A stretch of 64,000 nucleotides of DNA. It comes from an uncultured Gammaproteobacteria bacterium (GTDB taxonomy: Bacteria > Patescibacteriota > Microgenomatia > UBA8517). The stretch covers positions 22,802 through 86,801 of the forward strand of contig CAZCXV010000002.1 of NCBI GenBank assembly GCA_964502815.1, given 5' to 3'. Made by a program: the position numbers and the translations under genes. Below the pieces are notes generated by a model that ran no database searches, had not been told where the DNA came from, and saw only the letters and a list, made by a program, of their open reading frames with translations. Below, one piece after another: positions 20,048-34,134 of this stretch; position 1 is the stretch's first letter; each line of letters starts with the position of its first letter.

Positions 20048-21019
20048 TTAAGTAACTCTGTTCTGAGGTTTTCCTTTTGCAAGAGAAGTCAAATTATCAA
20101 CCCAGATTGCATACAGATTCTCTAAAGCCTCTTTTGTATAGTAGCCAAATCCTTTTATCCCAATTGAGTTTTCGAGTTTGGCAAGAGGAGTATTGATTAG
20201 ATCTTCGCCTTCATATGCATATGAATCTACTTTTCCTGATTTTAAAGCTTGAGCCATTGCTTTTTCGTCAACCAACTCCCTATCAACAGTGTTTACAACA
20301 ATTACTCCCTTTTTCATTTTTGTAATTTCTTTTTTGCCAATCATATTGTTGTTTGCTTCCTCGTGGGTCGTGTGAAGCGAAATCGCATCTGCTTGTTTAA
20401 ACAATTCGTTGAGAGAGACCATTCTCACACCTTTCATTTTCTTTGGAGTTCTGTTGTAAGCAATCACTTTCATATCAATTCCTAATGCTAGCTGTGCAGT
20501 AGCCATACCGATACTCCCAAGTCCAATAATTCCCAATGTTTTGCCTTTGAGTTCAAATCCTTGTGTTAATCTATACTTTCCTTTTTGAGTTGCTCTATCT
20601 GAAACAAATATTCTTTTTGCAAGTCCTAAAAGCATTGCAATGGAATGCTCTGCAACTGACTGTCTTGAGTAACCGGGAACGTTGCTTATTGGGAGTTTTC
20701 TTTTCTTCGCGTATTCAAGATCTACCCAGCCAAAAGATGTTGTTGAAAGACAAACTCCTTTAAGATTTGGGAGTGATTCCATAATTTTGGTTAACTTTTC
20801 TTTTGCCTTTTCAAAACCTCCAAGAGGTTCTGGACTGGCGCCAACAATTTCAGCCCCTTTAGCCATTCCAAGCAATTTTTCCATTGAGAGAGCTTCTCTT
20901 GTTTTGGTATATACAACTTGACCCAAGGAAGATAACTGTTTTTGTTGGTCAGGAGTAAAACTATTTTTGGGATCAAAAATCACAATTTTCATTAAGTTGA
21001 ATATATCACTTTTTTTCAC
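20048..21019 (-). CDS. D-isomer-specific 2-hydroxyacid dehydrogenase family (NAD-binding)
   Basis: Rossmann GIIGLGSIGMATAQLA, catalytic R/E/H arrangement (NR..V.., HTTHEEAN); lies between adk and secY. Confidence 0.65.
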   Translation of the reverse strand: MKKSDIFNLMKIVIFDPKNSFTPDQQKQLSSLGQVVYTKTREALSMEKLLGMAKGAEIVGASPEPLGGFEKAKEKLTKIMESLPNLKGVCLSTTSFGWVDLEYAKKRKLPISNVPGYSRQSVAEHSIAMLLGLAKRIFVSDRATQKGKYRLTQGFELKGKTLGIIGLGSIGMATAQLALGIDMKVIAYNRTPKKMKGVRMVSLNELFKQADAISLHTTHEEANNNMIGKKEITKMKKGVIVVNTVDRELVDEKAMAQALKSGKVDSYAYEGEDLINTPLAKLENSIGIKGFGYYTKEALENLYAIWVDNLTSLAKGKPQNRVT

Positions 21020-21107
21020 ATAGTCAATTTTTGTAATTTAAACAAAAAATAGATTCTACTTTAGACTACATGTCTAGTTTATAAAGTACCTACCACTCGC
21101 GATGAAA

Positions 21108-21713
21108 TCAAATCTTTCTTTTTACTTCACCTGGTTCTCTGCCTGTAGTTACCAACTTTCCTTGTTTACTTGGCAAGTCTGATCTTTCTGTAATTTGTAG
21201 TAAAACACCAACCACTCTTTGCATTCCATGTATGTATTGTCTTTGAGCCTGTTCATTGTCGGGACCCCTGAGAGGAAAAAAAATACCTTCACGTTCACCT
21301 TCAGCATCATAAACTTGCATAAGAAAACTATTTAAATTATCAACAGACAGCCTGTCTAGTTTTTGACTTTCAGGAGGAAGGGTAACACTTAGTATAGTTC
21401 TCTCGCCTTCATCGGCTCTAACGGCAACTGCAAAATATAAACTGCCTTCATTAGACAGTGTACATTTAAAAGTTCTATTGCCAGAAAGATTTTCGTTTAA
21501 CATGTGAAAGGAATTGGTGCCTTCGAATTTTTCTCCTTCTTTTACAATTACTTTTTTAAGATTGGCTCTGACATCATTGATAATTGGAGCGATATCTTCT
21601 AGTGTGTTAACACTATCTGCTTCCAAAGAAGTAAAATCTTTCAGATTTTGCCTACAATCTTGATATTCTTTATACCTTTGTGCCAATTTTTCCTGAGTGG
21701 ATACTTCCGCCAT
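21108..21713 (-). CDS. hypothetical protein (201 aa)
   Basis: Clean minus-strand ORF between the dehydrogenase and secY; no recognised motifs; acidic, non-membrane. Confidence 0.4.
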   Translation of the reverse strand: MAEVSTQEKLAQRYKEYQDCRQNLKDFTSLEADSVNTLEDIAPIINDVRANLKKVIVKEGEKFEGTNSFHMLNENLSGNRTFKCTLSNEGSLYFAVAVRADEGERTILSVTLPPESQKLDRLSVDNLNSFLMQVYDAEGEREGIFFPLRGPDNEQAQRQYIHGMQRVVGVLLQITERSDLPSKQGKLVTTGREPGEVKRKI

Positions 21714-21778
21714 AAGATTTTATTTTAAAAAAAAGTTTGCAAATCTACGATTTTATAGCAATTCTAAGAATTGATACA

Positions 21779-23071
21779 TCAAGCTTTGCTTGTTATAAAA
21801 TGCTCATACCTTCTCATAATAAGCTGGGATTCTAAGTCTTTGGTCAGTTCAATTACCACTGACACTACAATTAAAAGTCCTGTTCCTCCAACTACCAAGT
21901 TTGGTATGGCGACAAAGTTTTGCACAATTGAAGGCAAAATTGCAATAATACCCAAAAAAAGTGCTCCTACTAAAGTAATTTTACTCAAAACCGATCCTAA
22001 ATATTTTGCGGTTTGTGGTCCTGGCCTAGTTCCTGGAATAAAGCCGCCGTTTTTTTGCAAACTTTCGGCAATTTTTTCCGGATTAAAGACCACTGTCGTG
22101 TAAAAATAGGTAAAGGCTACTACAAGCGCAAAATATAAAACATTATACAAAAGAGATTGAGGATTTAAGGCTGCTGAAATATCTTGGGCAATTTTGGCTA
22201 CCTGGGCATTTCCTGTCGAGCCCACAAAGTTAGACACCAAGGATGGCATCAAGATTAAAGATATGGCAAAAATAATTGGGATTACCCCTGCTTGATTTAA
22301 TTTTAGTGGCATATAGGAAGTGGCGCCTGCCACCTCTCCTCTAGAACGTCTTGCATAGTGGACTGGAATTCTTCTGACTGCTTCAGAAATCAAAACCACC
22401 AAGCCCATGACAATCACAGCCAATACTACAAAGAAGGCTACTTTGGCAAAATTTTCAGTTGTAACAAGTCCTTTTGTTTGGACAATAGAAGCCGGAAGTC
22501 TTGAGATTATGCCTGCAAAAATCAAAAAGGATACGCCATTGCCTACTCCATATTGAGTAATCAGTTCGCCAAACCAAATTGACAACATAGTGCCAGTTAT
22601 CATCGTAATAACTAGTGCCAATAACGCCCCAGGAGAAAGGGTAGCAATAATGCCTTGACCACGCAGCAGTAAGTACATGCCAAAAGCTTGCATAGCAGCC
22701 AGTGGAACAGTTAGAAATCTTGTGTATTGGTTAATTTTTTCCTGACCATACTCGCCCTCTTTCTGAAGTTCCTCCAGAGAAGGAATAACAAAACCTAAAA
22801 GCTGGACAATAATTGAAGCATTGATATAAGGCCCCAACCCCAGTGCCATAATAGAAAAGTTTCCCAAAGTTCCCCCTGAAAAAATATCAACCAAAGAAAA
22901 AAGGGCACTACCTTCAAACAAAGCCTTAAGAAGAGGTAAGTTGATGCCAGCTACAGGGACGTGAGCCACTAACCTAAAGATAACTACAATAGCAGCCGTG
23001 ATTAAAAGTTTTTTTCTAATTGCAGGCGTTTTCCCAAGCCTGACAAAAAATTTAGCAATTGAGGCAAACAT
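21779..23071 (-). CDS. secY: preprotein translocase subunit SecY
   Basis: 10-TM SecY-like sequence (N-terminal [25 protein letters not shown], plug and C-terminal YEHFITSK-like tail). Confidence 0.9.
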
Positions 23072-23086
23072 TATGCTTATTTTATC

Positions 23087-23102
23087 ACATTACTTAAAAT
23101 GT
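23087..23102. promoter_or_regulatory. palindromic operator candidate ACATT-N6-AATGT upstream of the HTH-methyltransferase
   Basis: 16-bp inverted repeat 22 nt upstream of the MTase ATG, in the divergent secY/MTase intergenic region. N-terminal HTH-containing C5-MTases (M.SsoII/M.EcoRII/M.MspI type) autorepress via such operators. Confidence 0.35.
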
Positions 23103-23123
23103 TAATATAGTAACCCTTGCATT

Positions 23124-24395
23124 ATGCAGTGGTTACTTTATACTGGTGTTATGCAAACCCTCTTAACCGTCAATGAAGCAGCAAAAAAACTCGATATATC
23201 TGTAGATACAATAAGAAGATGGGATAAAAAAGGTCTTATTAAATCTCATCGGTCAAGTAACAATTATAGATTGTTCAATCTAGAAGAAATTGGTAGAATA
23301 CACAACAAAATCTCTAACGGAGTTGGAAAGTTTCAAATCTTGAAATCACTTACAAAGACTAACTACACAGTCATCGATCTTTTTTCTGGAGCAGGAGGTA
23401 CATCCCTTGGATTTGAAAATGCAGGACTAAAACACAAATTACTTGTTGAAATTGATAAAAATGCCGTCAACACTTTAAGAAAAAACCGACCTAATTGGAA
23501 TGTAATAGAAAGCGATATATCTAAAGTTGATTTCAGGGGTTTAGAAGCCGACATTGTTGAGGGTGGTTTTCCCTGCCAAGCTTTTAGTTTCGCTGGTAAA
23601 AAAATGGGGTTTGAAGACATTAGAGGAACTTTATTTTTTGAATTTGCCAGATGCATAAAGGAAGTACGTCCAAAAATCGCGATTGGAGAAAATGTTCGAG
23701 GACTACTTCAACATGACAAAGGTAAAACTTTAAATACCATGGTTAACACATTGAAAGAGTTAGGCTATAAAGTTGGATATAAAGTGTTGAGAGCTCAATA
23801 TTTTGATGTACCTCAAAAAAGAGAACGCTTAATTATAATCGCGGTAAGAAATGATATGAATGTACCAATTATGTTTCCCAAAGAAAAAGATTACATAATA
23901 ACATTACGTGAAGCGTTAAAAAATGTCCCAATCTCCGAAGGACAATCCTACCCTAAAAAAAAGGAAAATATGATGAAACTTATATCTCCTGGTGGCTACT
24001 GGAAAGATTTACCAGTTGAAGAACAAAAAGAATATATGGGAGCTAGTTTTTATATGGGAGGAGGAAAAACCGGCATGGCTCGTAGATTATCATGGGATGA
24101 ACCATCATTGACTTTGACTACTAGTCCAGCACAAAAACAAACAGAAAGATGTCATCCCGAAGAAACGAGACCTCTCACAGTTAAAGAATATGCACGTATA
24201 CAAAGCTTTCCCGATGAATGGATTTTTGAAGGCTCAATTGGTTCACAATATAAACAAATAGGTAATGCTGTGCCTGTTAATCTTGGTTATTATATGGGCA
24301 TGACTGCAGCAGATATACTCAATAAGAATGTTGACCTTAAAAAATATGATCTTTATAAGCAAGAAGAAATCATTTTCCAAGCTGCTCTTTTGTAA
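23124..24395 (+). CDS. DNA (cytosine-5)-methyltransferase with N-terminal MerR/excisionase-like HTH domain
   Basis: HTH LTVNEAAKKLDISVDTIRRWDKKGLI; motif I DLFSGAGGTSLGF, motif IV GGFPCQAFSFAGK, motif VI ENV, C-terminal QIGNAV (motif X). Confidence 0.85.
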   Translation: MQWLLYTGVMQTLLTVNEAAKKLDISVDTIRRWDKKGLIKSHRSSNNYRLFNLEEIGRIHNKISNGVGKFQILKSLTKTNYTVIDLFSGAGGTSLGFENAGLKHKLLVEIDKNAVNTLRKNRPNWNVIESDISKVDFRGLEADIVEGGFPCQAFSFAGKKMGFEDIRGTLFFEFARCIKEVRPKIAIGENVRGLLQHDKGKTLNTMVNTLKELGYKVGYKVLRAQYFDVPQKRERLIIIAVRNDMNVPIMFPKEKDYIITLREALKNVPISEGQSYPKKKENMMKLISPGGYWKDLPVEEQKEYMGASFYMGGGKTGMARRLSWDEPSLTLTTSPAQKQTERCHPEETRPLTVKEYARIQSFPDEWIFEGSIGSQYKQIGNAVPVNLGYYMGMTAADILNKNVDLKKYDLYKQEEIIFQAALL

Positions 24396-25119
24396 AATGT
24401 ACTTTTATATCTTCTGTTAAATCCAAAAGTACCTTTTTTATTAAAGTTTTCCCCTTTACTTTTAAAGCATTAGTGCCAAATAATTCGATTAGATCAGCAT
24501 AGAAATTTTCATCTCCAGTTAAGTGATGCCAAAATTCTTTTCCAACTATCACTGAATATTCTTTGTTAATATTTTTATAATTTCCACTAAGTTCATCTTC
24601 AGTTCCATAAAGTACTCCCACAATTAAATCTTCAAGTGAAATTGATAAATTATTCGTCCTTGCGAGATTTTTGACTGCGACAAAATGCCTAGATATAGTT
24701 TCAACATCATCTTTGTTCACTGTTTGTGGACCAGCTTTAATTTGACAATACTTTTTTCTCCCATCAAGTTTATCTTCAAATTCTATATCAATTCCAGAGG
24801 TCGTCGAAGCAAAACCTGAAAGAACCTGACTACAAAACTTTTGTAGATTATTACCAAAACTTGTATTTATTGAAGTACCCAATATACGTGGATATAAGAG
24901 TACTTTTGCAAGTGTTTCTGGTTTTGTATTACCGTCCATAAAAATTCCCAAATAATTTAATAAAAAAGGATTGTATTTAAACGAGGATAGTTTTCGCAAT
25001 TTCTTTAAGTTACTAACGTGATTTGGAATTATCGTTTCTCCAAAAAACTTTTTTGCGTTTTCTAAAATTTGTATTTTAAGCTTTTCGTCCATTCTCCCGG
25101 TAATATTAACACAAATCAA
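24370..25119 (-). CDS. putative type II restriction endonuclease (partner of the C5-MTase)
   Basis: Convergent with the MTase and overlapping it by 26 nt at the 3' ends. ~240-250 aa with no transporter or enzyme motifs; possible degenerate PD-(D/E)xK-like region GIDIEFEDK...CQIKAG. Assigned from context only. Confidence 0.4.
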   Translation of the reverse strand: MICVNITGRMDEKLKIQILENAKKFFGETIIPNHVSNLKKLRKLSSFKYNPFLLNYLGIFMDGNTKPETLAKVLLYPRILGTSINTSFGNNLQKFCSQVLSGFASTTSGIDIEFEDKLDGRKKYCQIKAGPQTVNKDDVETISRHFVAVKNLARTNNLSISLEDLIVGVLYGTEDELSGNYKNINKEYSVIVGKEFWHHLTGDENFYADLIELFGTNALKVKGKTLIKKVLLDLTEDIKVHFTKEQLGK

Positions 25120-25139
25120 TATTTACAAAAAAATGTAAC

Positions 25140-25571
25140 TTACTTTAAAGAGTTTTCAACAGATTTAGACATAGGAAGATTTATTTCAAGCTTCTTTTCC
25201 AGTTTTCCCTTGCCAAGAATTTTTACACCGTATTTTAAAGCTTTTTTGCCAACAATTTTCTTGTCGATTAAAAGATCAATGGTTACCTTTGTTCCTACCG
25301 GAAGTATATTTAATTTTTCTATGTTTACTGGCAGTGCCTTTGGATGGGTTTTGTTTTTTAATTTTCCTCTCAGAAAGGGAAGCCTATGAATTAAGGATTT
25401 TTTCACTTTCATGCCTTCAAACAAAATTCCAATCGAGCCTCTAGCCTTTTGACCTTTTTGTCCACGGCTTGAAGTGTGTCCACCTTTACCCGAACCATAG
25501 CCTTGGCCTTTTCTTTTGTCTTTCTTGGTTACAATCCTTTGTAATTTCATACTATTTTGTTTTCCTTTCAT
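25140..25571 (-). CDS. rplO: 50S ribosomal protein L15
   Basis: Gly/Lys-rich N-terminus KRKGQGYGSGKGGHTSSRGQKGQKARGS, typical of L15. Confidence 0.85.
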   Translation of the reverse strand: MKGKQNSMKLQRIVTKKDKRKGQGYGSGKGGHTSSRGQKGQKARGSIGILFEGMKVKKSLIHRLPFLRGKLKNKTHPKALPVNIEKLNILPVGTKVTIDLLIDKKIVGKKALKYGVKILGKGKLEKKLEINLPMSKSVENSLK

Positions 25572-26028
25572 GCATTTTATTTAATGTCTTTAAAGCTTCA
25601 AAAGTGGCATAGACATTTGAGATTTTATTGGAAGTTCCAAGGATTTTTCCAACTGCATCTCTGACTCCTGCAGCTTCTAAAACTACTCTCATGGTGCCCC
25701 CGGCAATTATTCCCGTACCCTTTGGGGCAGGTTTCAAAAGTACTTTAGCTGCTGAGAATTTTTCCCTTACTTCATAGGCCACAGTTGTTCCTCTCATAGA
25801 AACGGTAATCATATTCTTTTTGGCGGCAACGACCGCTTTTTGAATTGCTGTTCTCACATCTCCTGCCTTAGCAACACCCAAGCCAACTCTACCTTTTTTA
25901 TCACCAATAACTAAAAGTGCTGAAAATCTAATAGTGTTTCCTCCTTTAGTCTTTTTGCTGACACGTCTTATTTGAACTACTTGCTCATCAAATTCTTTTG
26001 GTTGCGGTACATAATTTGGGTTATACAT
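25552..26028 (-). CDS. rpsE: 30S ribosomal protein S5
   Basis: dsRBD VVQIRRVSKKTKGGNTIRFSALLVIGDKKGRVGLGVAKA and C-terminal S5 domain; overlaps rplO with no L30 gene in between. Confidence 0.9.
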   Translation of the reverse strand: MYNPNYVPQPKEFDEQVVQIRRVSKKTKGGNTIRFSALLVIGDKKGRVGLGVAKAGDVRTAIQKAVVAAKKNMITVSMRGTTVAYEVREKFSAAKVLLKPAPKGTGIIAGGTMRVVLEAAGVRDAVGKILGTSNKISNVYATFEALKTLNKMHERKTK

Positions 26029-26031
26029 AGT

Positions 26032-26370
26032 TTAGAATTTTAATCCTCCCTTTCTGGCGCCTTCGGCAACTGCTTTAATTCTGCCATGATAGGCAAAACC
26101 ATTTCGGTCAAAAACAACAGCCTTGATTTTTTTGCCTAATGCTTTCTTGGCAATTTCTTCTCCAATAAAAGTTGCCTTTTGCATTTTGGTCATTTTCTGA
26201 TCATTTTTGAGATCCGAAGCCTCGAGCAAAGTTATGGCTTTTTGGTCATCAATCAGTTGGGCATAGATATATCTGTCAGATCTGAAAACTGAAAGTCTTG
26301 GCAATTTGCCAGTTCCAGAAATCTTGGCTCTGATTCTTTTTTTTCTTGTTTGTCTGTCTTTAGTTACCAT
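26032..26370 (-). CDS. rplR: 50S ribosomal protein L18
   Basis: RKKRIRAKISGT..PRLSVFRS.R.IYAQ.ID and C-terminal FDRNGFAYHGR. Confidence 0.9.
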   Translation of the reverse strand: MVTKDRQTRKKRIRAKISGTGKLPRLSVFRSDRYIYAQLIDDQKAITLLEASDLKNDQKMTKMQKATFIGEEIAKKALGKKIKAVVFDRNGFAYHGRIKAVAEGARKGGLKF

Positions 26371-33708: not shown

Positions 33709-34134
33709 TTAAGTTAGACCTAATCTTAAATTAACTGGACCATCTGTTAACATACCCCTATATTCACGACCAATTTCCCCAATCACATCTTTTGAAGACA
33801 AACTCATTTTTGGTGCATATTTCTCAACTAGGGCTCTTGCGGCTGGTACCCCAGCCAAAGCCGCGCCCAATATACCGCCAACCAGATATCTAATCGCATT
33901 TTTCTGAGTCCCAACACTATCAAGTGCAATCTGGAAACCTGAATCAAAAACATTAGCCTCTGCTTGAGGGGGAGATGATCCCAGGATTGCATTAGACACT
34001 CCTCTTACAAACCAGTTATCATACCCATCAGGATATTCCATAGATAAATAATTCATCACTTCCACTAACTTTTGTGGCATGACTTGTGTATCCACAATAT
34101 CACCAGCTCTAATTTGTTTAAAAATCTCTGACAT
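33709..34134 (-). CDS. hypothetical protein (141 aa) between rpsJ and rplC
   Basis: Clean ORF in the operon orientation; no recognised motifs (Gly/Ala-rich GGILGAALAGVPAARAL segment). Its AUG lies within a 7-bp hairpin (34133-34150). Confidence 0.4.
   Translation of the reverse strand: MSEIFKQIRAGDIVDTQVMPQKLVEVMNYLSMEYPDGYDNWFVRGVSNAILGSSPPQAEANVFDSGFQIALDSVGTQKNAIRYLVGGILGAALAGVPAARALVEKYAPKMSLSSKDVIGEIGREYRGMLTDGPVNLRLGLT

What the first reader, a model, noticed from the sequence alone, without database searches (positions are those of the whole stretch)
23072..25139. Type II restriction-modification module inserted inside the spc ribosomal-protein operon, between rplO and secY
Across Bacteria rplO is followed directly by secY. 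Here two genes sit between them:
- an N-terminal-HTH C5 cytosine methyltransferase on the plus strand (motifs I, IV PCQ, VI ENV and X are all present);
- a convergent 249-aa ORF whose 3' end overlaps the MTase by 26 nt and which reads like a type II restriction endonuclease.
The endonuclease candidate runs in the same direction as the ribosomal genes and starts only 20 nt after the rplO stop, so it could be transcribed by read-through from the spc operon promoter. A restriction-modification module splitting one of the most conserved operons in biology is unusual, and it suggests recent horizontal acquisition with tolerated disruption of r-protein/secY coupling.
Basis: partly seen in the sequence, partly recalled or inferred. 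Interest (0 to 1): 0.7.

Follow-up and report, generated by a model that had tools for sequence, protein, structure and literature searches.

The report
Restriction-modification cassette inside ribosomal operon
An intact two-gene restriction-modification (DNA-cutting plus DNA-marking) defence cassette of a well-known family has landed between the ribosomal protein gene rplO and the secretion gene secY of an uncultured groundwater bacterium; the place is unusual, the system itself is ordinary.

Summary
The host is a Woesebacteria-like Patescibacterium (CPR) from groundwater. On its minus strand, rplO (25140-25571) and secY (21779-23071) are separated by 2,068 bp holding two convergent genes.

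- **Endonuclease (24370-25092, minus):** a PmeII/EcoO109I-family type II enzyme. Pfam PF14511 gives E=6e-38, and the predicted fold matches EcoO109I.
- **Methyltransferase (23151-24395, plus):** a C5-cytosine enzyme with every catalytic motif intact and an N-terminal MerR-type HTH.
- **Corrected starts:** homologues and gene callers indicate 240 and 414 aa, not 249 and 423 aa.
- **Candidate operator:** a 25-bp inverted repeat (23111-23135) overlaps the methyltransferase promoter. It is conserved upstream of all six homologous methyltransferase genes examined. DNA homology to other cassettes ends exactly at its outer edge.
- **Mobility:** the same convergent cassette sits in unrelated neighbourhoods elsewhere.
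- **Relatives:** none of about 130 carries the cassette, and 119 have rplO directly next to secY. About seven carry other cargo at this junction.
- **Composition:** the endonuclease gene has the lowest GC3 of the 58 window genes.

The verdict is a horizontally acquired, probably active R-M cassette, likely cutting GGWCC-type sites. It is a new member of a known kind in an uncommon place. Read-through expression from the ribosomal operon remains untested.

The parts
25140..25571 (-). rplO (ribosomal protein L15), the upstream flank and the last ribosomal protein gene before the insert
   Evidence: NCBIfam rplO_bact E=3.3e-18 and Pfam Ribosomal_L27A. It overlaps rpsE by 20 nt, and no rpmD is present.
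25093..25139 (-). 47-nt spacer between the rplO stop and the endonuclease ATG. It contains an extended -10-like element, TGtTAATAT (25111-25103). No terminator-like hairpin is present.
   Evidence: Sequence read. The terminator scan found nothing here. The RNA fold has z=-0.34. The promoter assignment is inference only.
24370..25092 (-). Type II restriction endonuclease gene of the PmeII/EcoO109I family, 240 aa. The alternative TTG start at 25119 gives 249 aa.
   Evidence: PF14511 E=5.9e-38. There are 3,845 homologues, and the named ones are called 'PmeII family type II restriction endonuclease'. The AF2 model has pLDDT 90.6. Foldseek's best hit is EcoO109I 1wte, E=3.3e-9, TM 0.64. D102, E104, Q117 and K119 are invariant, and K119 aligns with EcoO109I K126.
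24370..24395 (.). 26-nt overlap of the convergent 3' ends of the endonuclease and methyltransferase genes
   Evidence: ORF coordinates. Homologous cassettes are also tail-to-tail, with a 3-nt gap or overlaps of 8, 9 and 38 nt.
23151..24395 (+). C5-cytosine DNA methyltransferase gene with an N-terminal MerR-type HTH, 414 aa. The upstream ATG at 23124 would give 423 aa.
   Evidence: PF00145 E=1.5e-84 and MerR E=3.6e-13. TIGR00675 dcm E=3e-82. Motifs I, IV, VI, VIII, IX and X align with M.HhaI. PADLOC MTase_II PDLC03272 matches the full length, HTH included, at E=6e-110. The protein is 76%, 69% and 63% identical to the cassette methyltransferases in L075, L076 and L077.
23111..23135 (.). 25-bp inverted repeat TAACCCTTGCATTATGCAGTGGTTA, the candidate operator for the methyltransferase's own HTH. 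It overlaps the -35-like TTGCAT (23117-23122) and lies just upstream of the -10-like TATACT (23139-23144).
   Evidence: It occurs once in the window, against 0.04 expected. The repeat finder reports it independently as I6. It is conserved directly upstream of the methyltransferase start in L075, L076, L077/78, L166 and L160. DNA homology to the L075 and L077 cassettes ends exactly at 23111.
23072..23110 (-). 39-nt secY leader left between the cassette edge and the secY ATG. It is probably the native rplO-secY spacer. It contains a TAAAAT (23084-23079) 7 nt before the ATG, a candidate -10 element for secY.
   Evidence: Its length matches the median 34-nt rplO-secY gap in 119 relatives. Relatives with cargo upstream of secY have TATAAT about 10 nt before the secY ATG. 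The promoter role is inference.
21779..23071 (-). secY, the downstream flank
   Evidence: PF00344 E=5.7e-106 and TIGR00967 E=2.1e-118.

Best explanation
A self-contained type IIP restriction-modification cassette of about 2.0 kb was acquired horizontally and inserted just after the rplO stop codon. The insert spans from 23111 to at most 25139. It splits rplO from secY in a Woesebacteria-like CPR bacterium.

Shown by the analyses:
- The cassette encodes an intact PD-(D/E)XK endonuclease of the PmeII/EcoO109I family.
- It also encodes a convergent, intact m5C methyltransferase with an N-terminal MerR-type HTH domain.
- A 25-bp inverted repeat lies over the methyltransferase gene's -35/spacer region. 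It is conserved in every homologous cassette examined.
- In four of six cassettes a -10 hexamer sits exactly 6 nt before the methyltransferase ATG.

Inferred:
- The methyltransferase binds that repeat through its HTH and represses its own, probably leaderless, transcript. This is the principle established for SsoII/Ecl18kI-type methyltransferases.
- The enzyme pair recognises a GGWCC-type site with a GGNCC core. The methyltransferase protects the 38 GGWCC sites in this window, and the endonuclease cuts unmethylated incoming DNA.
- The endonuclease gene has its own weak promoter. It may also be transcribed by read-through from the ribosomal operon, because no terminator follows rplO.
- That read-through would run antisense through the methyltransferase gene before reaching secY. 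secY probably also has a promoter of its own in its 39-nt leader.
For: - Family and fold of the endonuclease.
- Methyltransferase motifs intact. HTH present.
- Cassette conserved as a convergent endonuclease plus HTH-methyltransferase unit in five other, unrelated neighbourhoods (L075, L076, L077, L078, L166). Both proteins diverge in parallel, methyltransferase 63-76% and endonuclease 57-66% identical.
- Operator conserved in 6 of 6 methyltransferase homologues and unique in the window.
- The homology boundary falls at 23111.
- Cassette absent from about 130 relatives, 119 of which have rplO next to secY.
- Deviant composition, endonuclease GC3 z=-3.2 and methyltransferase GC3 z=-2.0.
- Independent assembly identical.
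- PmeII cuts GGWCC (bioRxiv 10.1101/2021.02.10.430591).
- EcoO109I's W130 wedge reads the flanking R/Y bases (PMC7337904). It aligns with Q123 here, which argues against a 7-bp RGGNCCY site.
Against: - No activity, methylation or transcript data exist for this system.
- GGWCC and GGNCC are not clearly avoided in the window. Observed/expected is 0.62 and 0.53 against a dinucleotide model, but 0.90 and 0.86 against a maximal-order Markov model. Neither long residence nor the specificity is therefore corroborated.
- Single-sequence similarity to EcoO109I is weak (E=0.56), so the aligned catalytic residues rest on profile and fold.
- The promoter scan of the region was not above chance, with 19 sites against 14.8 expected. 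The -35 hexamers I propose are weak.
- No target-site duplication, terminal repeat, integrase or transposase marks how the cassette got in.
- No close relative with an empty site was recovered.
Confidence: 0.88

Rival explanations
1. The cassette is a decaying or partly domesticated remnant. The endonuclease is inactive or silent, and only the methyltransferase works, as an effectively orphan enzyme for epigenetic marking or protection against other GGWCC systems.
For: No clear site avoidance was found. Homologous methyltransferases with the operator but without a detectable endonuclease gene exist, for example on viral contig L160. An endonuclease gene co-directional with a strongly transcribed operon would be hazardous if fully active.
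Against: The endonuclease ORF is full length. It keeps all 59 columns that are invariant among 18 family members, including D102, E104, Q117 and K119. It folds with pLDDT 90.6. There are no frameshifts or stops, and the sequence is identical in two assemblies.
Confidence: 0.08
2. The gene pair is an old, vertically inherited part of the operon in this lineage, a conserved local feature rather than a horizontal insert.
For: The junction carries other, apparently inherited cargo in two related subclades, L019/L021/L025/L026 and L032/L035. No close relative (SecY above 86% identical) with upstream sequence was available.
Against: None of about 130 related loci has an endonuclease or methyltransferase homologue there. 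The composition is deviant. The cassette occurs in unrelated contexts, including Saccharimonadales and one locus next to a serine recombinase. The best named hits are Firmicutes.
Confidence: 0.03
3. The arrangement is a chimeric assembly that joins an R-M-bearing fragment into the ribosomal operon.
For: The source is a short-read metagenome assembly.
Against: A separate assembly of a different run (Logan SRR5855237) gives a 10,391-bp contig that is 100% identical across rpsH to rpsM, including both junctions. The flanks abut the cassette with short spacers and no repeats that could mislead an assembler.
Confidence: 0.01

Closest known systems
PmeII (GGWCC) and the 'PmeII family' type II restriction endonucleases, Pfam PF14511 RE_EcoO109I
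   Same: The profile match is strong and covers the full length. The protein is about 56-67% identical to family members in the 18-sequence alignment. The invariant core GIDIEF...KKYCQxKxGPxTxNKDD is present. An m5C methyltransferase gene is adjacent.
   Different: The host is a CPR bacterium and the location is inside the ribosomal protein operon. Identity to PmeII itself was not measured because its sequence is not held here, so the GGWCC specificity is inferred.
EcoO109I (RG^GNCCY), PDB 1WTD/1WTE
   Same: It is the best structural match, Foldseek E=3.3e-9, probability 1.00, TM 0.64. The catalytic lysine aligns, K126 with K119.
   Different: Sequence identity is only about 19-21%. The W130 wedge that reads the outer R/Y bases is Q123 here (PMC7337904). 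From my own knowledge, EcoO109I is controlled by a separate C protein. This cassette has no C gene and instead carries an HTH fused to the methyltransferase.
SsoII/Ecl18kI-type R-M systems, in which the methyltransferase's N-terminal HTH regulates transcription
   Same: The C5 methyltransferase has an N-terminal DNA-binding domain of about 70 aa, and an inverted-repeat operator lies in its own promoter (PMC2760811 and PMC3978073).
   Different: The genes here are convergent and overlap at their 3' ends. They are not divergent around a shared regulatory region, so one operator cannot directly serve both promoters. The HTH is scored as MerR-type by Pfam. Binding has not been tested.
Canonical bacterial spc operon order ...rpsE-(rpmD)-rplO-secY-adk-map
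   Same: All these genes are present in that order on the minus strand.
   Different: Three features depart from the canonical order in this genome: a 2.07-kb R-M insert between rplO and secY, two further lineage-specific genes between secY and adk, and no rpmD.

Membership tests
PF14511 RE_EcoO109I / PmeII-family type II restriction endonuclease | Profile match above the curated threshold over most of the domain | tested here: met
   131.1 bits against a cut-off of 22.5, E=5.9e-38, profile positions 2-194 of 198. phmmer-type search found 3,845 homologues.
PF14511 RE_EcoO109I / PmeII-family type II restriction endonuclease | EcoO109I-like PD-(D/E)XK fold | tested here: met
   AF2 model pLDDT 90.6, pTM 0.81. 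Foldseek against 1wte_A gives E=3.3e-9 and TM 0.64/0.58. The next unrelated hit has E=0.06.
PF14511 RE_EcoO109I / PmeII-family type II restriction endonuclease | Catalytic core residues retained: the 'PD' aspartate strand and the xXK lysine | tested here: met
   D102, E104, Q117 and K119 are invariant in 18 family members, including the window protein. K119 aligns with EcoO109I K126. Assigning roles to these residues is inference.
PF14511 RE_EcoO109I / PmeII-family type II restriction endonuclease | Sequence-specific cleavage, G^GWCC or a related site | not testable with these tools
   This needs the enzyme or methylome data. Site counts in the window were uninformative.
C5-cytosine DNA methyltransferase (PF00145 / TIGR00675) | Conserved motifs I (FxGxG), IV (PCQ with the catalytic Cys), VI (ENV), VIII (QxRxR) and X (GNxV) | tested here: met
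   DLFSGAGG, GFPCQAFS, ENV, QKRER and GNAV align column for column with M.HhaI. PF00145 scores 284.6 bits and TIGR00675 276.9 bits against a cut-off of 100.65.
C5-cytosine DNA methyltransferase (PF00145 / TIGR00675) | m5C methylation of the cognate site | not testable with these tools
   This needs EM-seq, bisulfite, MFRE-seq or nanopore 5mC data.
Type II R-M system (PADLOC/REBASE sense) | Adjacent endonuclease and methyltransferase genes forming a unit that recurs together | tested here: met
   The genes are adjacent and overlap by 26 nt. The same pair is found in L075, L076, L077, L078 and L166 in different neighbourhoods. PADLOC gives MTase_II at E=1e-120 and a weak REase_II hit at E=3.4e-4.
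SsoII/Ecl18kI-like systems regulated by the methyltransferase | N-terminal HTH domain fused to the methyltransferase | tested here: met
   The MerR HTH covers residues 15-51 of the 423-aa model, E=3.6e-13.
SsoII/Ecl18kI-like systems regulated by the methyltransferase | Inverted-repeat operator in the methyltransferase promoter region | tested here: met
   The repeat at 23111-23135 is unique in the window, with 0.04 expected. It is conserved upstream of 6 of 6 homologous methyltransferase genes. Binding itself was not tested.
SsoII/Ecl18kI-like systems regulated by the methyltransferase | Divergent endonuclease and methyltransferase genes sharing one regulatory intergenic region | tested here: not met
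   The genes are convergent, and the two 5' ends are about 1.9 kb apart. No second operator copy lies near the endonuclease start.
C-protein-controlled R-M systems | A separate small HTH controller gene with a C-box upstream of the endonuclease gene | tested here: not met
   Only two genes fit in 23072-25139. The other ORFs of at least 50 aa are antisense overlaps.
Canonical spc operon gene order | rplO immediately followed by secY | tested here: not met
   The gap here is 2,068 bp. The median gap is 34 nt in 119 related loci.

The most novel reading that the evidence does not exclude
The two junctions flanking secY in the ribosomal super-operon of Microgenomates-group CPR bacteria may act as recurrent landing pads for accessory and defence cargo. 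Cargo seen so far is this R-M cassette, an AbiEii toxin, SNase-type nucleases, NUDIX hydrolases and a deaminase. In this genome the endonuclease gene may hitch-hike on ribosomal operon read-through. Restriction capacity would then scale with growth rate, while the same read-through collides head-on with methyltransferase transcription. The essential flanks would also make the selfish cassette hard to delete.
Probability: 0.15. Interest if true: 0.55.

Novelty: new member of a known kind. Interest (0 to 1): 0.35.

Why it matters
The system itself adds nothing new mechanistically. PmeII/EcoO109I-family enzymes, HTH-fused m5C methyltransferases and the mobility of R-M cassettes are all established.

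Three points have modest value.

1. It is a clean, well-delimited case of a selfish defence cassette sitting inside the most conserved gene cluster of bacteria, in a lineage (CPR) with a small genome.
2. rplO-secY adjacency is broken in roughly 5% of related species, and secY then carries its own TATAAT-type promoter. This matters for anyone using operon synteny or read-through models in these organisms.
3. The conserved 25-bp operator with a -10 hexamer 6 nt before the ATG gives a testable regulatory model for a widespread, convergent and C-protein-less R-M architecture.

If strand-specific transcript data showed ribosomal read-through driving the endonuclease gene against the methyltransferase gene, it would be an instructive natural experiment in toxin/antitoxin balance.

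Tried and rejected
- **Exact-protein look-up with the 249-aa TTG model.** It found nothing. The 240-aa ATG model is what is on record.
- **Recognition-site avoidance for GGWCC, GGNCC and RGGNCCY.** Depletion appears only against a dinucleotide model and vanishes with a maximal-order Markov model. It is not usable as evidence for activity or specificity.
- **Promoter and terminator scan of 21500-26200.** Promoter-like sites were at chance level, 19 against 14.8 expected. No terminator lies near the cassette. RNA folds of the rplO-endonuclease spacer and of the 3' overlap were unremarkable, z=-0.34 and z=-1.64.
- **Search for an empty site in a close relative.** The genome and metagenome scans returned only one closer relative. 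It is L004, the same contig as L086, with SecY 86% identical, and it starts inside secY. The exact insertion point is therefore inferred from cassette homology only.
- **Flanking direct or terminal inverted repeats.** None was found at the cassette borders, so the insertion mechanism is undetermined.
- **NCBIfam.** It gave no hit for the endonuclease. The sequence search of the PDB gave only a marginal EcoO109I hit, E=0.56, so structure prediction was needed.
- **Shine-Dalgarno inspection.** SD usage is weak and irregular in this genome, so it did not settle the start codons.
- **Literature searches for R-M inserts in ribosomal operons.** They found no precedent in the held library. That is not proof that none exists.
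- **Viral-contig scan with the operator pattern.** Five of six hits (L161-L165) had no methyltransferase homologue and were treated as chance.
Full report
**Setting.** The window comes from a 107-kb groundwater-metagenome contig (ENA ERZ909576, k127_620495). SecY is 60-65% identical to MAGs labelled Candidatus Woesebacteria, Microgenomates or Patescibacteria. The ribosomal super-operon lies on the minus strand in the order ...rplN, rplX, rplE, rpsN, rpsH, rplF, rplR, rpsE, rplO, [two extra genes], secY, [two extra genes], adk, map, infA, rpsM....

**Check of the observation.** The coordinates are right.
- rplO is 25140-25571 (-) and secY is 21779-23071 (-).
- Between them lie a minus-strand ORF (24370-25119) and a plus-strand ORF (23124-24395), whose 3' ends overlap by 26 nt.
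- The arrangement is not an assembly artefact. An independent assembly of another run (SRR5855237) gives a contig 100% identical over 10,391 bp across both junctions.

**The endonuclease.**
- The minus-strand ORF matches Pfam PF14511 (RE_EcoO109I) at E=5.9e-38 over nearly the whole profile.
- It has 3,845 homologues. The named ones are called 'PmeII family type II restriction endonuclease', mostly from Bacillus and Clostridium relatives, at about 60% identity. The best hit is 67% identical.
- An alignment of 18 members shows an invariant core, GIDIEF..D..D..KKYCQ.K.GP.T.NKDD, fully kept in the window protein.
- The AlphaFold model is confident, pLDDT 90.6. Its only significant PDB matches are the EcoO109I structures, 1wte at E=3.3e-9 and TM 0.64. 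AvaII appears only weakly.
- K119 aligns with EcoO109I K126.
- The gene callers' model and all homologue N-termini start at the ATG at 25092, giving 240 aa, rather than the TTG at 25119.

**Likely specificity.** PmeII's site is GGWCC (bioRxiv 10.1101/2021.02.10.430591). EcoO109I cuts RG^GNCCY and uses W130 to read the outer R/Y pairs (PMC7337904). That position is Q123 here. I therefore favour a 5-bp GGWCC/GGNCC-type site, as an inference. The window holds 38 GGWCC sites and shows no robust avoidance.

**The methyltransferase.**
- PF00145 scores E=1.5e-84 and TIGR00675 scores E=3e-82.
- Motifs I (DLFSGAGG), IV (GFPCQAFS), VI (ENV), VIII (QKRER), IX and X (GNAV) align with M.HhaI.
- The N-terminus is a MerR-type HTH, E=3.6e-13.
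- PADLOC has a type II methyltransferase model (PDLC03272) that matches the full length including the HTH.

**A conserved cassette with a conserved operator.**
- The closest endonuclease homologues with context sit in the same convergent pairing with a MerR-HTH methyltransferase. These are P0002 (L075), P0003 (L076), P0086 (L077/L078, Saccharimonadales) and P0044 (L166).
- Each sits in a different neighbourhood, and L077 lies next to a serine recombinase.
- A more distant homologue (L079) has an Xre-type HTH methyltransferase in tandem orientation.
- The methyltransferase and endonuclease diverge in parallel, 76/69/63% and 66/64/57% identical.
- Directly upstream of every methyltransferase start lies a 25-bp inverted repeat, TAACCnTTGC-N5-GCAnTGGTTA.
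- In the window it is at 23111-23135. It is unique there, with 0.04 expected, and the repeat finder reports it independently.
- It is also present in L166 and upstream of a methyltransferase homologue on an IMG/VR viral contig, L160.
- In the window it overlaps a -35-like TTGCAT (23117-23122). A -10-like TATACT (23139-23144) follows, 6 nt before the ATG at 23151.
- The same '-10, 6 nt, ATG' geometry recurs in L075, L076 and L166. This points to a leaderless methyltransferase mRNA and fixes the true start at 23151, giving 414 aa.
- DNA homology between the window cassette and those of L075 and L077 stops exactly at 23111. The repeat is therefore the cassette's outer edge on that side.
- The remaining 39 nt up to secY match the usual rplO-secY spacer, median 34 nt.
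- By analogy with SsoII/Ecl18kI (PMC2760811, PMC3978073), the fused HTH most likely binds this repeat and autorepresses. This step is inferred.

**Is it an insertion?**
- Of the related loci with upstream sequence (71 from species-representative genomes, 80 from metagenomes), 119 have rplO directly abutting secY.
- None has an endonuclease or methyltransferase homologue.
- The endonuclease gene has the lowest GC (0.299, z=-2.9) and GC3 (0.195, z=-3.2) of 58 window genes. The methyltransferase gene has GC3 z=-2.0.
- No direct repeats, terminal repeats or recombinase genes mark the borders, so the insertion mechanism is unknown.

**The junction is not sacrosanct in this clade.**
- About seven relatives (L019, L021, L025, L026, L032, L035, L148) carry 2-5 kb or more of other genes between rplO and secY.
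- That cargo includes NUDIX, SNase, a cytidine deaminase, a TPR protein, a sigma-70 region-4 protein, peptide deformylase, AbiEii toxin, GNAT and CYTH.
- The cargo-bearing relatives fall into two or three subclades by SecY identity. This suggests a few independent events rather than a very hot spot.
- In L019, L021 and L025 a TATAAT lies about 10 nt before the secY ATG. secY evidently runs on its own promoter when it is uncoupled from rplO.
- The window has a TAAAAT 7 nt before its secY ATG. This is a candidate only.

**Expression in this context.** No terminator-like structure follows rplO. The spacer also carries an extended -10-like TGtTAATAT (25111-25103) that could be the cassette's own endonuclease promoter. 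None of this can be settled without transcript data.

**Verdict.** It is a new member of a known kind in an uncommon location, a neat example rather than a new kind of system.

Noticed in passing
window 20048-21713 (minus strand): Two more lineage-specific genes split the conserved secY-adk junction. One is a 201-aa protein with no Pfam, NCBIfam or PADLOC hit (21108-21713). The other is a D-isomer-specific 2-hydroxyacid dehydrogenase (20048-21019). Neither was found in any of about 150 related loci. Several relatives (L004, L010, L016, L029, L033, L041) have other inserts at the same junction.
   Followed up: partly
window 33709-34134 (minus strand): A 141-aa ORF with no Pfam or PADLOC hit sits between rpsJ and rplC. 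This is another insertion in the normally contiguous S10 operon.
   Followed up: partly
window 25552-25571: rpsE and rplO overlap by 20 nt, and there is no rpmD (L30) gene between them. From my own knowledge, loss of L30 is a reported trait of CPR bacteria. The L15 protein is divergent, scoring below the NCBIfam cut-off (65.9 against 77.95 bits).
   Followed up: no
L019 1203-5942; L021 3710-5933; L035 3948-5928; L025 and L026 upstream of 6001; L032 1216-1905; L148 838-4935: Related Woesebacteria and Microgenomates carry unrelated cargo between rplO and secY: NUDIX, SNase, deaminase, TPR, sigma-70 region 4, peptide deformylase, AbiEii toxin, GNAT and CYTH. In L019, L021 and L025, secY then has a TATAAT about 10 nt upstream of its ATG.
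   Followed up: partly
L160 10364-11619 (IMG/VR UViG_3300043812_000067): A putative viral contig carries the same operator repeat followed by an HTH-methyltransferase homologue (63% identical). No endonuclease homologue was detected. This may be a phage-borne orphan methyltransferase that would protect the phage from this R-M family.
   Followed up: partly
L077 8303-9862 versus L078 2342-4567: Two Saccharimonadales contigs share the identical cassette and downstream genes. They differ next to the methyltransferase gene, where L077 has a serine recombinase and L078 has about 2.2 kb with no called gene. This hints at a mobile or decaying element beside the cassette.
   Followed up: no
window 24728: One GGWCC site lies inside the endonuclease gene itself. 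It would need methylation if GGWCC is the target.
   Followed up: no
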